Program-made: the position numbers | Part shown: in pieces, positions 1-39,100 of the stretch | Layout of the letters: each line of letters starts with the position of its first letter | How positions within the stretch are numbered: the stretch's first letter is position 1 | NCBI GenBank assembly: GCA_951406725.2 | Contig: OX597830.1 | Coordinates: 25,172,001 to 25,236,000, forward strand | From: Octopus vulgaris | Taxonomy: Eukaryota | Direction: 5' to 3' | DNA length: 64,000 nt

Positions 1-3000
1 CCTGAAGAAATTATTACAACTCACACTGCAGAACCTCTAACAGCGACAACAAAACTACCATCTCTAACAACTCTAGCCGAAGAAGTAGAAACATCTATGC
101 CCACCACAATTTCTGCTCCCACAGTGAGTACACCAACTCAAACAACTATTGCTTCCTCAACTGCAGAACATACGACTGTCACTGAACTGCCACGCACTGA
201 CAAAACTACAACTGAAGCTACCACATTCACATCGACTGAAAAGACTCCAGAAACAAAACACAAACAGGCACACCAGAAATGATTACAGCACCTGTCATGG
301 ACACAACTGCACACATTGCATCAACAACTCAAATTCAAGCAGAAACAGAGGAATCAACTTCCCAACTTCCTACAACAATACATCTTATAACACCTACTAC
401 TGAAACAACAACACAACTTGAAGAAATTATTACAACTCACACTGCAGAACCTCTAACAGCGACAACAAAACTACCATCTCTAACAACTCTAGCCGAAGAA
501 GTAGAAACATCTATGCCCACAACAATTTCTGCTCCCACAGTGAGTACACCAACTCAAACAACTATTGCTTCCTCAACTGCAGAACATACGACTGTCACTG
601 AACTGCCACGCACTGACAAAACTACAACTGAAGCTACCACATTCACATCCACTGAAAAGACTCCAGAAACAACCACACAAACAGGCACACCAGAAATGAT
701 TACAGCACCTGTCACGGACACAACTGCACACATTGCATCAACAACACAAATTCAAAAAGAAACAGAGAAGACAACTTCCCAACTTCCTACAACAACACAT
801 CTTTTAACACCTACTACTGAAACAACAACACAACCTGAAGAAATCATTACAACTCACACTGCAGAAACTCTAACAGCGACAACAAAACAACCATCTCTAT
901 CAACTCTAGCCGAAGAAGTAGAAACATCTATGCACACCACAATTTCTGCTCCCACAGTGAGTACACCAACTCAAACAACTATTGCTTCCTCAACTGCAGA
1001 ACATACGACTGTCACTGAACTGCCAGGCACTGACAAAACTACAACTGAAGCTACCACATTCACATCGACTGAAAAGACTCCAGAAACAACCACACAAACA
1101 GGCACACCAGAAATGATTACAGCACCTGTCACGGACACAACTGCACACATTGCATCAACAACTCAAATTCAAACAGAAACAGAGGAATCAACTTCCCAAC
1201 TTCCTACAACAACACATCTTATAACACCTACTACTGAAACAACAACACAACCTGAAGAAATTATTACAACTCACACTGCAGAACCTCTAACAGCGACAAC
1301 AAAACTACCATCTCTAACAACTCTAGCCGAAGAAGTAGAAACATCTATGCCCACCACAATTTCTGCTCCCACAGTGAGTACACCAACTCAAACAACTATT
1401 GCTTCCTCAACTGCAGAACATACGACTGTCACTGAACTGCCACGCACTGACAAAACTACAACTGAAGCTACCACATTCACATCGACTGAAAAGACTCCAG
1501 AAACTACCACACAAACAGGCACACCAGAAATGATTACAGCACCTGTCACGGACACAACTGCACACATTGCATCAACAACTCAAATTCAAACAGAAACCGA
1601 GAAGACAACTTCCCAACTTCCTACAACAACACATTTCATAACACCTACTACTGAAACAACAACACAACCTGAAGAAATTATTACAACTCACACTGCAGAA
1701 CCTCTAACAGCGCCAACAAAACTACCATCTCTAACAACTCTAGCCGAAGAAGTAGAAACATCTATGCCCACCACAATTTCTGCTCCCACAGTGAGTACAC
1801 CAACTCAAACAACTATTGCTTCCTCAACTGCAGAACATACGACTGTCACTGAACTGCCACGCACTGACAAAACTACAACTGAAGCTACCACATTCACATC
1901 GACTGAAAAGACTCCAGAAACAACCACACAAACAGGCACACCAGAAATGATTACAGCACCTGTCACGGACACTACTGCACACATTTCATCAACAACTCAA
2001 ATTCAAACAGAAACCGAGAAGACAACTTCCCAACTTCCTACAACAACACATCTTATAACACCTACTACTGAAACAACAACACAACCTGAAGAAATTATTA
2101 CAACTCACACTGCAGAACCTCTAACAGCAACAACAAAACTACCATCTCTAACAACTCTAGCCGAAGAAGTAGAAACATCTATGCCCACCACAATTTCTGC
2201 TCCCACAGTGAGTACACCAACTCAAACAACTATTGCTTCCTCAACTGCAGAACATACGACTGTCACTGAACTGCCACGCACTGACAAAACTACAACTGAA
2301 GCTACCACATTCACATCGACTGAAAAGACTCCAGAAACAACCACACAAACAGGCACACCAGAAATGATTACAGCACCTGTCACGGACACAACTGCACACA
2401 TTGCATCAACAACTCAAATTCAAACAGAAACAGAGGAATCAACTTCCCAACTTCCAACAACAACACATCTTATAACACCTACTACTGAAACAACAACACA
2501 ACCTGAAGAAATTATTACAACTTACACTGAAGAACCTCTACAAGCGACAACAAAACTACCATCACTAACAACTCTAGCCGAAGAAGTAGAAACATCTATG
2601 CCCACAACTATTTCTGCTCCCACACTGAGTACACCGACTCAAACAACAATTGCTTCCTCAACTGCAGTACATACGACTGTCACTGAACTGCCACGCACTG
2701 ACAAAACTACAACTGAAGCTACCACATTCACATCGACAGAAAAGACTCCAGAAACAACCACACAAATAGGCACACCACAAATGATTACAGCACCTGTCAC
2801 GGACACAACTGCACACATTGCATCAACAACAGAAATTCAAACAGAAACCGAGAAGACAACTTCACAACTTCCTACAACAACACATCTTATAACAGCTACT
2901 ACTGAAACAACAACACAACCTGAAGAAATTATTACAACTCACACTGCAGAACCTCTAACAGCGACAACAAGACTACCATCTCTAACAACTCTAGCCGAAG

Positions 3001-36100: not shown

Positions 36101-39100
36101 AATATTAACTAGATTATGGCTGTGAGATAACAGTTTATTCAAAGTAGCCGTTCACAGCTTCAACCCAGCTCTAGAAGCTGGTGCATTCCTCACTGTGTCC
36201 TTGGGAAGATCTTCAAACCCTTCCTTGATCTTGGCCACCAACTTGGCTTTTGTGTTGCAGGCAGAAAGGTTGGTTTCTCTTTCTCAATTGTACCCCATAG
36301 ATAGTAATCCATAGGAGTACAATCAGGAGTGTTGAGAGACCAGAAATTGGGGCTGATAAAGCCATAGAAATTCTCCAACAACCACTTCTGGTTCTTTCTG
36401 GAGGTATGGCAAGGAGCCAAATCCTACTGCCACACATATGGCCTTCCAATAGCAACTCATTTCAGTCAGGGATTGACTACAGTCTCCAGGATCTTCACAT
36501 AGTCGTCTGAATTGAGCCTAAGGTTCTGTTCAAAGATGTGGAGATTAATTCCAGCATGCAGGCAGTTAGAAAGCTTGCTGTGTCCCTTTTTGTTGACCAC
36601 AGCTTCGTAGTCTCCCTTACAGCTGTCCATGTCATGTCTTATACCCTTTACAGTGTTCATAGAGCACTGAGCGGCAGTCATGATGTCGGCATTTTGATAC
36701 CCAACATGAATCAGCATAATACAGGTAACTCTCTTCCAATATTCAGATAGCTTCCAGTCCACCATGTCAGGAAACTTTTCTCAATTAAAACTTTAATCTT
36801 TATGCTCACTGGGGCAGCTACAGAGGAAATGTTAAGGGACCCTCTTTTAATATACAAGGGATAGGATGGAGTTTCGCTCTTGACTCATGAGTGAATGTTT
36901 GTTGGATTTGGTAAAGCATTGCAGACAATCAGAACCAGAAATCTGATATGCTCAATATCAGTCCACCAAAAATCAGACCAGGTAACATTCTACTGCAGTA
37001 TATTGGCCCACCTTGTCCAGGCTTGCTTCTCCTACACTTATGTAGACTTCTTGGAGCAGATGTTACTGCATTATTCCTGCAATACTTCCAATCTGATGAG
37101 TTACGAAATATTCATGCCTGAGCTTTCAACAGTTCCAACCAGAGCCCTCTGCTTCAACCATACTTCTGCCACCTACAACTCTCTAACAGCCCTCCACTTC
37201 TTACCTGTGCAAACTTCAATGTCAGTTACTACTACTTTCATGTCACTGGAATCTCTGTACTTTGTGGCTTCTCTTGTTCTTCACACAACAAACTTCTCTG
37301 AGAGTCCACTGAATGGGAGTTGTAATGCTATTTCCCAATGTTTTTGTTAGTTCTGTGGATGGAAACTGTCCTTCAGGTTGCTGTCAAAAGATTTCCCCCA
37401 AGCTCTTGACTGTTTGTTCTGTTGAGATTGGGAAAGCAATGCTGGAAAAGATGAAGCAAAACTTTTCTACCATTTTTCCTTTCTTTAGCACAAGAGACCT
37501 TGATTTTGATAGTCTGAAGTTCATCCATGTCCATGAAATGGGCTTCTTGAGTCCTTAATAGATGTTCCTGTTATCACACCAACTGTTGTTGTTGTTAGGT
37601 CATCTACAGAGGCTCTTATTGGTGGCTGTTGCACACCAGATTCATACAGAGTCCTTGACACTCTACCTCTGCTAACTTGACCAGCATGTTCTTGACAAGG
37701 GCATAAAGAGTTACTGAGATGGTGTAACCTTTTCCAGTATGTACCACTTAGATGCTGTAGGTACACAGGTGACTCTTATCTGGAAGATATGGTAGTAATC
37801 CAGAATGAGGCCAGTGATCTTCCTGGGGACATGGTGCCTTTGAAGAACCTCCTCTATCAGCTTGCGTGGCATGAACCTATAGGTATTTGCAAGGTCCAAC
37901 CGCAGAACCCACCAAATCTCCCTTACCTTTTCTCACTTCTCTTAAGAGCTATATGGCCATCCCAGTGTGCTCTAAGCAGTGAGGTATTGCAGCGAAGCAT
38001 CAGTGGTGCTTCTCCCTGGTACAAAACCAAACTGCATCTCATCTAGATTAACTCTCTTCATAATGAGTTGGGATATGACCCTCTCCGTAACACACATATA
38101 CATATATACATGTACACACATATACATATAGCTACATGCACACATACATGCATATCTGTGTATGAATATACATACATACTGGAGTGGTAACTTTTTCACT
38201 GAACACTACAGAATTTACAGAATCTTATGTTCAGTTCACTTTAAACAGATATTATGATAGCAATAAAGAAATTTTCATTTGTACTTACATGTTAAAACTC
38301 TTTTTCCTCTGCAACATTATCGTCATGCTAAGTTCATACAATATTTCTATCTTTTGTACTTTTTCAGGTTCAATAATTTTTGGATTTGACCTACTATCAC
38401 TAGGCACACGCCGAGCCTCATTTATTCACAAATTCATCAATGCCTTCATGCCATATTCTGGTTACAGTCATTATAGTATTGTTTCATGGAGTAAAAGGCC
38501 CTTGCACGTAAATTTCCCACTATCCAAACATGATTCTGATCGGAGAGAGCCACACATACCAGACTTGGCAGATATAGTGGAAAAAATCAAGAACGACCTA
38601 TCTTCTACTTCTGTACAAGAACATAACTTGGGTAATGGAGATATACCACCAGTCGTTGTACTGTTTGTTGACCCTCTCGAGACAAGTCTTACAATGCCTT
38701 TAATCAAAGCAGTTAGGCAATTGAAAAAATCTCGTGCAAGAGTATTTTTATTAAATATTGGAATCAGCAAATGGCCAAAACAAGGAACTCTAGAATTGCT
38801 TAGTAGCGAACCAAGTCAGTTGCATATTGTCCATGCTCCATCCTATCGGCAACTACTAAACAGGGCTTTGAACACTCCCTACCAGTTCCGATTGCTGTCA
38901 AATCAATATAAACCCATTACATTCAAAAAGACTAATGCTCCTGCATATTAAAAAAATTTCTAACAAAAGAATATAGACTCAAACATTTGGCTAATTGTCA
39001 GATTTCAAATTTAAAAAAGCATTGGTAATTCAATGTTTTGGTCTCATAATAAAAAATAACCTTTAAGTTGAGGAAATATCTAGCAATATTTATATGTTAA

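What the first reader, a model, noticed from the sequence alone, without database searches (positions are those of the whole stretch)
1..38951. Giant Cys-free mucin ending in a single degenerate VWA domain: an atypical secreted mucus/adhesive/matrix architecture
Seen: more than 31.8 kb of PTS-coding sequence with no Cys in the corrected frame, frame-compatible splicing to one ~194-aa terminal exon, no transmembrane helix, no cystine knot, no VWD/C8/TIL or SEA domain. Established: gel-forming mucins (MUC2/MUC5 type) polymerise through Cys-rich VWD and CK domains, membrane mucins end in SEA/EGF-TM, and VWA domains mediate non-covalent matrix binding in collagen VI/XII, matrilins and molluscan matrix proteins such as Pif, BMSP and PTMP1. 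Inference: a >1 MDa glycoprotein that anchors or assembles through a C-terminal VWA rather than disulfides, possibly a cephalopod skin mucus, sucker, egg-jelly or glue component. The N-terminus lies outside the window.
Basis: partly seen in the sequence, partly recalled or inferred. Interest (0 to 1): 0.8.

Follow-up and report, generated by a model that had tools for sequence, protein, structure and literature searches.

The report
Giant mucin-like gene ending in VWA
The window holds the last 32 kb of a huge threonine-rich, cysteine-free mucin-like gene that most likely splices onto a final exon encoding a diverged von Willebrand A-type binding domain, an unusual but not unprecedented way to end a mucus protein.

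Summary
Bases 1-31879 (+) are tandemly repeated Thr/Ser/Pro-rich coding sequence: 417-nt, 18-nt and 405-nt units, all multiples of three. The best frame path has 10,631 codons with 0 stops, 0 Cys and 0 Trp. As assembled it is not one ORF. Thirteen small indels split it into 14 open pieces, the longest 3,650 codons.

A strong donor lies at 31879|31880, 27 nt before the frame's stop, and a strong acceptor at 38367|38368. They are phase-compatible.

The 193-194-aa last exon has no Cys. Pfam VWA matches it below threshold (E 0.0017, 19 vs 23.8 bits, 146 of 174 profile positions). Language-model neighbours are all VWA clusters. Single-sequence AlphaFold models are weak (pLDDT 47-55), and Foldseek gave no significant hit. 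The DxSxS metal site is degenerate.

No TM helix and no Cys-rich domain lie in the window.

The N-terminus, expression, homologues and source organism could not be checked. "Cys-free mucin assembling through VWA" is therefore plausible but unproven.

Verdict: new variant of a known kind, moderate interest.

The parts
1..6559 (+). Tandem array of a 417-nt (139-codon) Thr-rich unit, 15.7 copies. It runs off the 5' edge of the window.
   Evidence: TRF (92% matches). A reference copy finds 16 copies, 13 at 94.9% identity or more and 3 at about 83%. No Pfam family for one unit.
6560..8901 (+). Non-repetitive PTS stretch that includes (TTTRRP)x17 at 7140-7450.
   Evidence: 0 stops in 780 codons against 27-60 in the other five frames. 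0 Pfam families.
8902..30383 (+). Arrays of a 405-nt (135-codon) Thr-rich unit: 37.2 + 2.8 + 9.8 copies. They are interrupted twice by copies of the 1,288-bp block listed next. Twelve of the 13 frame shifts lie here.
   Evidence: (55 hits of a reference copy). The unit is related to the 417-nt unit: 55% amino-acid identity in a permuted register, E 1e-8 and 4e-7.
23361..24648 (+). Copy 1 of a 1,288-bp block (last repeat unit plus the start of the Ser-rich tail). Copy 2 is 25155-26442. Copy 3, at 29776-31063, is the one that continues to the donor.
   Evidence: blastn: 99.2% identity, 0 gaps, for each of copies 1 and 2 against 29776-31063.
30384..31879 (+). Non-repetitive Ser/Thr-rich tail of the giant exon with 16 N-x-S/T sequons. 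It ends at the donor.
   Evidence: 498 aa; T 104, S 89; 16 sequons; max hydropathy 1.16. 0 stops against 15-52 in the other five frames. 0 Pfam families.
31880..38367 (+). Predicted 6,488-nt phase-1 intron, GT...AG, holding transposon fragments.
   Evidence: Donor AAG|GTAAGA and acceptor with a pyrimidine tract. The only + strand AGGTAAG in the window is at 31878-31884. It is one of 6 + strand donors scoring 8 of 9 or better in 1-38367. RVT_1 fragment at 32479-32886(-), E 2.3e-9. No transcript evidence.
38368..38951 (+). Last exon: VWA-like domain (about aa 1-168 of the exon), a 25-30-aa tail and the stop. No Cys. The metal-site motif is degenerate.
   Evidence: Pfam PF00092 E 0.0017, 19 bits (cutoff 23.8), aa 18-162 on profile positions 23-168 of 174. 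Atlas neighbours all VWA. AF2 gives a beta-alpha alternation at pLDDT 47.5 and 55.2. 0 stops against 8-16 in the other frames.
39048..39053 (+). First poly(A)-signal hexamer after the stop, 97 nt downstream.
   Evidence: After the alternative stop at 31906-31908 the first such hexamer is 459 nt away, at 32367.

Best explanation
This is the 3' part of a very large secreted mucin-like gene of an animal. One giant exon, more than 31.9 kb in the window, encodes tandem 135-139-residue Thr/Ser/Pro-rich units. These would be densely O-glycosylated and stiffen into a bottle-brush rod. A Ser/Thr/Asn-rich tail with 16 N-glycan sequons follows. A phase-1 intron of 6.5 kb then joins a single last exon encoding a diverged VWA-like alpha/beta domain with no cysteines and no complete metal site.

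Inferred mechanism: the glycosylated rod supplies hydration, lubrication or stickiness. The C-terminal VWA-like module supplies a metal-independent protein-protein contact, to itself, to matrix or to another mucus protein. That contact would tether or cross-link the polymer without C-terminal disulfides.

The 13 frame shifts are most likely consensus errors of a long-read assembly inside near-identical repeats.

Shown: the repeats, their composition, the open frames, the splice signals and their phase, and the sequence-level VWA likeness. Inferred: secretion, glycosylation, use of the splice, the VWA fold and its binding role, and the intactness of the gene.
For: - Periods of 417, 405 and 18 nt are all multiples of 3.
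- 0 stops, 0 Cys and 0 Trp over 10,631 codons; T+S is 42.9% and P is 8.2%. This meets the PTS rule of thumb in Lang et al. 2016 (PMC4948705, passages seen: T+S at least 40%, P often above 5%).
- The unique stretches are open in one frame only.
- 42 ungapped copies have 0 in-register stops in 5,707 codons. Among 176 distinct repeat variants about 4.8 stop-creating changes were expected and none is realised.
- The donor lies 27 nt before the stop and is the only + strand AGGTAAG in 64 kb. Phases match.
- A poly(A) hexamer lies 97 nt after the exon's stop, against 459 nt after the unspliced stop.
- The VWA-like domain starts at the second residue of the exon: AF2 places the first strand at aa 2-6, then the motif loop, then a helix.
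- Pfam VWA E 0.0017 over 146 of 174 profile positions. 30 of 30 atlas neighbours are VWA clusters. VWA-type clusters still lead when three VWA families are skipped.
- All 13 frame shifts lie inside the arrays, 11 of the 13 sites involve 1-nt indels only, and there are no nonsense substitutions.
Against: - As assembled the gene is broken 13 times. The indels are not in long homopolymers (runs of 1-3), so they do not carry the usual error signature and could be real.
- The Pfam score is below the curated cutoff, and the first 22 profile positions, which include the metal-site loop, are not aligned.
- PDB sequence search gave 0 hits at E<=10.
- Both AF2 models are low confidence. Foldseek gave 0 matches at E<=0.001. 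The top hits are other alpha/beta folds (KaiC, homoserine dehydrogenase), with VWA entries only scattered among them (ranks 43; 15, 17, 23, 46).
- Repeat variants show a near-neutral synonymous share (25 of 76 and 31 of 100, against 0.27 and 0.26 expected). Constraint is on openness and composition only.
- No transcript, homologue, signal peptide or organism could be examined.
- A stop follows the donor in frame, so an unspliced product without the VWA is possible.
Confidence: 0.6

Rival explanations
1. The locus is a decaying or dead mucin gene. The 13 frame shifts are real mutations, and no giant protein is made from it.
For: 13 frame-breaking indels in 31.9 kb, including a 2-nt and a 10-nt insertion, none in a long homopolymer. 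The synonymous to non-synonymous ratio among repeat variants is near neutral. Transposon fragments sit in and around the gene.
Against: There is no nonsense substitution: 0 stops on the path, 0 in 5,707 in-register codons, against about 4.8 stop-creating variants expected among 176. The 4.4 kb of non-repeat coding sequence and the VWA exon carry no break at all. Splice signals are intact. A near-neutral ratio is normal for PTS repeats, where composition rather than sequence is selected (established knowledge of mucins).
Confidence: 0.15
2. The mucin ends at the stop 27 nt after the donor. The VWA-like exon belongs to another transcript, a small separate gene whose first exon lies in 31.9-38.3 kb, or it is an orphaned exon.
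For: An in-frame stop lies at 31906-31908. Phase agreement alone has a 1 in 3 chance. A scan of 31909-38300 gave 3 ATG-started phase-1 candidates. One of them, 36556-36724 (+), has a hydrophobic start and a donor scoring 8 of 9.
Against: A donor of this strength in the last 30 nt of a 31.9-kb frame is improbable. There are 6 such sites in 38,367 nt, so about 0.005 by my arithmetic. No poly(A) hexamer occurs for 459 nt after that stop. The candidate first exon has no family match and overlaps an open stretch on the other strand. No other exon-like domain was found in 27 of the 67 open stretches of 75 codons or more beyond 31900 that I scanned.
Confidence: 0.15
3. The last exon is not a VWA domain. 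It is some other, or a novel, alpha/beta domain, and the Pfam and language-model likeness is superficial.
For: 19 bits is below the 23.8 cutoff. 0 PDB sequence hits. The best Foldseek hits are KaiC/RecA-like and dehydrogenase folds, and none is significant. The atlas text warns that a third of shuffled proteins also get ten same-family neighbours.
Against: VWA is the only Pfam family up to E=10, and the match is collinear over 146 of 174 profile positions. Atlas recognition is 2965, above the 2300 mark, with a top score of 0.93. Shuffled or reversed proteins reach 0.9 only 4-10 times in 100. With VWA, VWA_2 and VWA_3 skipped, 3 of the 4 rows shown are again VWA-type. The order of predicted strands and helices fits a VWA (the fit to the VWA topology is recalled, not computed).
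Confidence: 0.12

Closest known systems
Gel-forming mucins (MUC2/MUC5AC/MUC5B/MUC6/MUC19 type)
   Same: A very large central PTS region of tandem repeats encoded by one giant exon. No TM helix. Presumably secreted and O-glycosylated. Composition meets the PTS criteria quoted in PMC4948705.
   Different: Those proteins end in Cys-rich VWD-C8-TIL, VWC or cystine-knot modules that form disulfide multimers (PMC4948705, passages). Here the last 10,800 codons hold no Cys at all, and the end is a VWA-like domain. The N-terminal VWD units cannot be checked.
Lineage-specific 'orphan' mucins (e.g. MUC7, rodent Muc10) formed by gain of PTS repeats
   Same: Mucin function defined by exonic PTS repeats rather than by descent. 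Few or no cysteines. Repeat periods are multiples of three. The model that a non-mucin secreted protein gains repeats is set out in PMC9417175 (passages).
   Different: Those are small proteins without a globular C-terminal module. This one is more than 10,000 residues and carries a VWA-like end.
Mollusc mucus glycoproteins with a Ser/Thr-rich part and a swappable C-terminal module (CAMPs and the 'mucus VWA protein' of Cornu aspersum)
   Same: A glycosylated Ser/Thr-rich region combined with a C-terminal binding module. Database relatives are reported to carry lectin, VWA or fibrinogen domains, and non-covalent integration into the gel is proposed (PMC10475054, passages).
   Different: CAMPs are defined by a conserved N-terminal region, which cannot be seen here. 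They are far smaller and are not described as long tandem PTS arrays. No sequence comparison was possible, because the supplements were closed and no sequences were on hand.
VWA-domain matrix proteins (collagen VI, matrilins, VWF A domains; molluscan Pif, BMSP, PTMP1)
   Same: An extracellular VWA-type module used for non-covalent protein binding. The VWF A1 and A3 domains also work without a complete metal site (established knowledge, recalled).
   Different: Those proteins have several VWA domains, or VWA plus collagen, EGF, coiled-coil or chitin-binding parts, and usually flanking cysteines. Here there is one VWA-like domain, no Cys and no other domain in the window.

Membership tests
Mucin in the functional sense (PTS-domain protein) | A long domain with Thr+Ser of about 40% or more and Pro above about 5%, often tandemly repeated (Lang et al. 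2016, PMC4948705) | tested here: met
   T+S is 4,560 of 10,631 codons (42.9%) and P is 871 (8.2%). Tandem units of 139, 135 and 6 codons.
Mucin in the functional sense (PTS-domain protein) | Secretion signal and dense O-glycosylation | not testable with these tools
   The N-terminus lies outside the window. There are no glycoproteomic data.
Gel-forming mucins | C-terminal Cys-rich modules (VWD-C8-TIL, VWC, cystine knot) for disulfide multimerisation | tested here: not met
   0 Cys in 10,631 codons and 0 in the 193-aa last exon. No such Pfam family in the tail, the exon, or the 27 of 67 downstream and intronic open stretches scanned.
Gel-forming mucins | Three N-terminal VWD-C8-TIL units | not testable with these tools
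   The array runs off the 5' edge of the window at base 1.
Transmembrane mucins | SEA or NIDO-AMOP-VWD module plus a TM helix and cytoplasmic tail at the C-terminus | tested here: not met
   The highest 19-residue hydropathy is 1.43, in a predicted beta strand. No SEA or EGF Pfam hit.
VWA domain (Pfam PF00092) | Score at or above the Pfam gathering cutoff | tested here: not met
   19.0 bits against 23.8. E 0.0017. aa 18-162 on profile positions 23-168 of 174. It is the only family up to E=10.
VWA domain (Pfam PF00092) | Rossmann-like alpha/beta fold superposable on solved VWA domains | tested here: inconclusive
   Single-sequence AF2 gave pLDDT 47.5 (pTM 0.46) and 55.2 (pTM 0.54), with alternating strands and helices. 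Foldseek against PDB gave 0 hits at E<=0.001 in both searches. VWA entries appear only at ranks 43 (TMq 0.40) and 15, 17, 23, 46.
VWA domain (Pfam PF00092) | MIDAS metal site starting with D-x-S-x-S after the first strand (motif recalled) | tested here: not met
   The loop after predicted strand 1 reads D-L-L-S-L: the Asp is kept and both Ser positions are Leu. An Asp is kept at the end of the fourth predicted strand (V-D-P). The alignment is by eye.
VWA domain (Pfam PF00092) | Protein-language-model neighbours are VWA families | tested here: met
   30 of 30 nearest clusters carry VWA (0.89-0.93, recognition 2965). With three VWA families skipped, 3 of the 4 rows shown are other VWA-type clusters at 0.77-0.80.
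CAMP-type mollusc mucus proteins (PMC10475054) | Conserved N-terminal region shared by the family | not testable with these tools
   The N-terminus is outside the window.

The most novel reading that the evidence does not exclude
A mucus or adhesive polymer of more than 1 MDa that contains no cysteine anywhere and forms its network only through a metal-independent C-terminal VWA-like domain. That would be a non-covalent route to a mucin gel or glue, distinct from the disulfide-linked gel-forming mucins, and it would have arisen by a VWA matrix protein gaining a giant PTS exon.
Probability: 0.15. Interest if true: 0.65.

Novelty: new variant of a known kind. Interest (0 to 1): 0.4.

Why it matters
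Mucins are defined by function, and new ones keep arising by repeat gain. How they assemble decides the material they make. The canonical secreted gel-formers rely on Cys-rich ends. A giant PTS polymer whose only visible globular part is a Cys-free, metal-site-less VWA-like domain would point to non-covalent tethering or cross-linking of mucus or glue in an invertebrate. It would also be a candidate for the poorly characterised high-mass glycoproteins of mollusc secretions.

The locus has a practical side too. It shows how such genes are damaged in assemblies: 13 frame shifts and a thrice-repeated 1.3-kb block. Gene predictors will therefore miss or truncate them.

Tried and rejected
- PDB sequence search with the exon: 0 hits at E<=10.
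- Two single-sequence AF2 models (193 and 171 aa) and two Foldseek searches against PDB: no significant match. The third Foldseek job, on the viral library, was not used because it was not relevant.
- NCBIfam scan of the exon: only an irrelevant hit at E 0.053.
- Scan of 185,579 bacterial and archaeal genomes with the exon: 281 pattern matches, 0 relatives. There is thus no sign of a prokaryotic origin, but also no homologues.
- tblastn of the exon against the window: no paralogue. The only other match has E 6.2.
- Rfam and tRNA scans of the window: 0 and 0.
- Pfam on 27 of the 67 open stretches of 75 codons or more beyond base 31900: only transposon families reach their cutoffs (RVT_1, Transposase_1, HTH_48). 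The Cys-containing + strand stretches 36895-37347 and 37696-38043 have no family. The other 40 stretches were not scanned.
- My recalled guess that 34805-35419 is piggyBac-like got no Pfam support, and I drop it.
- A satellite-DNA reading of the repeats was rejected: all periods are multiples of 3, and the unique flanks are open in the same frame.
- An apparent stop variant came from scoring single changes and is not a real stop.
- Literature: 9 searches found no paper describing a giant PTS array ending in one VWA domain. The search 'mucin-like' + 'C-terminal VWA' + 'threonine' returned 0 papers. This covers only the open-access library that was searched.

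
Full report
WHAT IS THERE

The window has no N. On the + strand, bases 1-31879 are strongly A/C-rich: GC skew is about -0.4 to -0.5 and AT skew is up to +0.39. Both skews fall away beyond 32 kb.

Tandem Repeats Finder reports these arrays:
- a 417-nt unit x15.7 at 1-6559
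- an 18-nt unit x17.3 at 7140-7450, which reads TTTRRP in frame
- a 405-nt unit x37.2 at 8902-23968
- the same 405-nt unit x2.8 at 24649-25762 and x9.8 at 26443-30383

All periods are multiples of three. A reference copy of each long unit finds 16 and 55 matching copies. The two units are related: 55% amino-acid identity in a circularly permuted register, E 1e-8 and 4e-7. The array begins at base 1, so the gene continues upstream of the window.

IS IT CODING, AND IS IT INTACT?

It is not one ORF as it stands. Stop-free runs switch between the three + frames. The longest are 240-11189 (3,650 codons), 19410-27137 (2,576) and 13461-18191 (1,577).

A frame path that charges for stops and for frame changes covers 1-31878. 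It has 10,631 codons, 13 frame switches, no stop, no Cys and no Trp. Composition is Thr 33.5%, Ser 9.4% and Pro 8.2%. Each switch coincides with a real indel relative to a paralogous copy. At 11 of the 13 sites only 1-nt indels are involved. One site has a 2-nt insertion and one a 10-nt insertion. None is in a homopolymer longer than 3. All 13 lie inside the arrays.

The evidence for coding is strong. The two non-repetitive stretches, 6561-8901 and 30385-31878, have 0 stops in 780 and 498 codons in the coding frame. Each of the other five frames has 15-60 stops. By base composition, P(open) is 2e-17 and 9e-14. The 42 ungapped repeat copies read in register have 0 stops and 0 Cys in 5,707 codons.

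Among 176 distinct repeat variants the synonymous share is near the neutral value (25 of 76 and 31 of 100, against 0.27 and 0.26). About 4.8 stop-creating changes were expected and none is realised. Selection therefore keeps the frame open and the composition Thr-rich, but not the exact residues. This is usual for PTS repeats.

I read the 13 indels as assembly errors in near-identical repeats rather than decay, because there are no nonsense substitutions and no break in 4.4 kb of unique coding sequence. The data here cannot prove it.

HIGHER-ORDER STRUCTURE

A 1,288-bp block, made of the last repeat unit plus the first 680 nt of the Ser-rich tail, occurs three times at 99.2% identity without gaps: 23361-24648, 25155-26442 and 29776-31063. 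Only the third copy continues into the unique tail. This is either a recent internal duplication or a mis-join in the assembly.

THE JUNCTION

The open frame 29386-31905 contains AAG|GTAAGA at 31879|31880, 27 nt before its stop.
- AGGTAAG occurs 5 times in the window on both strands (7.6 expected from shuffles), and only this once on the + strand.
- With a 9-position consensus count it is one of 6 + strand sites scoring 8 or better in 1-38367.
- A pyrimidine-rich acceptor...tcttttgtactttttcag|G, ends at 38367.
- 31879 is the first base of a codon and 38368 the second. This is my arithmetic on the runs. The junction is therefore phase-1 compatible.
- The first poly(A) hexamer is 97 nt after the exon's stop. 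After the unspliced stop it is 459 nt away.

The spliced protein as a whole was neither searched nor folded. No transcript data were available.

THE LAST EXON

The exon spans 38368-38951: 193 full codons, no Cys, no N-glycan sequon, and a maximum 19-residue hydropathy of 1.43.

Evidence for a VWA domain:
- Pfam gives VWA (PF00092) as the only family up to E=10, at E 0.0017 and 19.0 bits. This is below the 23.8-bit cutoff. The match is collinear, aa 18-162 on profile positions 23-168 of 174.
- The ESM-Atlas feature search returns VWA clusters for all 30 neighbours (0.89-0.93, recognition 2965).
- With VWA, VWA_2 and VWA_3 left out, 3 of the 4 rows shown are still VWA-type clusters, at 0.77-0.80.

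Evidence that is neutral or against:
- PDB sequence search finds nothing.
- Two single-sequence AlphaFold models are weak (pLDDT 47.5 and 55.2). They do show the strand-helix alternation, with the first strand at residues 2-6 of the exon.
- Foldseek against PDB gives no match at E<=0.001. Generic alpha/beta folds lead. Entries that contain VWA domains appear lower down: TEM8 at rank 43 (probability 0.91, TMq 0.40), and MIC2, collagen VII vWFA2, the collagen VI C-terminal region and the Ku80 von Willebrand domain at ranks 15, 17, 23 and 46. That TEM8, MIC2 and collagen VI hold VWA domains is recalled, not stated in the tool output.

The loop after strand 1 reads D-L-L-S-L where the recalled DxSxS motif would sit, so the metal site is incomplete.

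I put the VWA assignment at roughly 0.85. 'Degenerate' is a fair word for it.

SURROUNDINGS

The predicted intron holds an RVT_1 fragment at 32479-32886(-) and several open stretches without any family. These include two Cys-containing + strand stretches, 36895-37347 and 37696-38043.

Downstream there are:
- a mariner/Mos1-type relic at about 47808-48676(-), in separate open pieces (Transposase_1 E 7.7e-19, HTH_48 E 1.6e-8)
- a second mariner-type catalytic fragment at 53287-53622(-), matching PDB Mos1 at E 8e-8
- a dispersed repeat of about 400 bp in three places

No further Cys-rich, TM or VWA exon was detected. I scanned only 27 of the 67 open stretches of 75 codons or more beyond 31900, and short exons would escape this approach.

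HOW IT MOST LIKELY WORKS

Shown: the repeat architecture, the composition, the open frames, the splice signals and the VWA likeness.

Inferred: the product is a secreted, densely O-glycosylated rod with 4,560 Ser+Thr in the window. Its N-glycan-rich tail (16 sequons) leads into a small globular VWA-like domain. That domain binds a protein partner without a metal ion and without disulfides. It would tether the polymer to matrix or cross-link it into a gel or glue.

COMPARISON WITH WHAT IS KNOWN

- Gel-forming mucins. It behaves like one in its PTS core. It fails the C-terminal membership test, since it has no Cys-rich module. The N-terminal test cannot be run.
- Transmembrane mucins. It is not one.
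- Orphan mucins. It fits the idea that mucins arise repeatedly by repeat gain (PMC9417175, passages seen).
- Snail mucus proteins. Reports describe a Ser/Thr-rich part joined to interchangeable C-terminal modules, with relatives carrying VWA domains (PMC10475054, passages seen).
- Octopus skin mucus. The proteome lists mucins and VWA-domain proteins as separate entries (PMC11431876, passages seen).

None of the nine literature searches turned up a giant PTS array ending in a single VWA domain. This holds for the open-access library searched only.

WHAT STAYED UNCHECKED

No tool holds animal genomes. I therefore found no homologues, could not build an alignment for structure prediction, and could not identify the organism.
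- Paper supplements were closed. Those of PMC10475054 (CAMP and VWA protein sequences) and PMC4948705 (lophotrochozoan mucin models) may bear on novelty.
- I do not take the contig for human.

VERDICT

Novelty: new variant of a known kind. Interest: 0.4.

Noticed in passing
window 23361-24648, 25155-26442, 29776-31063: A 1,288-bp block spanning the end of the repeat array and the start of the unique tail is present three times at 99.2% identity with no gaps. It is either a recent internal duplication or an assembly mis-join.
   Followed up: partly
window 7140-7450: A perfect-looking 18-nt repeat encoding TTTRRP 17 times. It is a basic, Arg-rich island inside an otherwise acidic or neutral PTS region.
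   Followed up: no
window 32479-32886 (-): A reverse-transcriptase (RVT_1) fragment of a retroelement inside the predicted intron, E 2.3e-9, covering only part of the profile.
   Followed up: no
window ~47808-48676 (-) and 53287-53622 (-): Two mariner/Mos1-type transposase relics. The first lies in at least three separate open pieces (Transposase_1, HTH_48). The second is a lone catalytic-domain fragment matching PDB Mos1 at E 8e-8.
   Followed up: partly
window 45735-46138, 57935-58406, 61195-61579: A dispersed repeat of about 400 bp, 84-90% identical between copies and in both orientations. No tRNA or Rfam match. Possibly a SINE-like element.
   Followed up: partly
window 36556-36724 (+): A short ATG-started open stretch with a hydrophobic start and a phase-1 donor scoring 8 of 9. 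It could in principle be an alternative first exon for the VWA-like exon. It has no family match.
   Followed up: partly
window 62857-63054: A TC-rich tandem repeat of 44-46 nt, 4.4 copies.
   Followed up: no
window 36000-38000: A GC-richer island (0.42, against about 0.30-0.33 around it) inside the intron. It has Cys-containing open stretches on the + strand (36895-37347, 37696-38043) that match no Pfam family. Nature unknown.
   Followed up: partly
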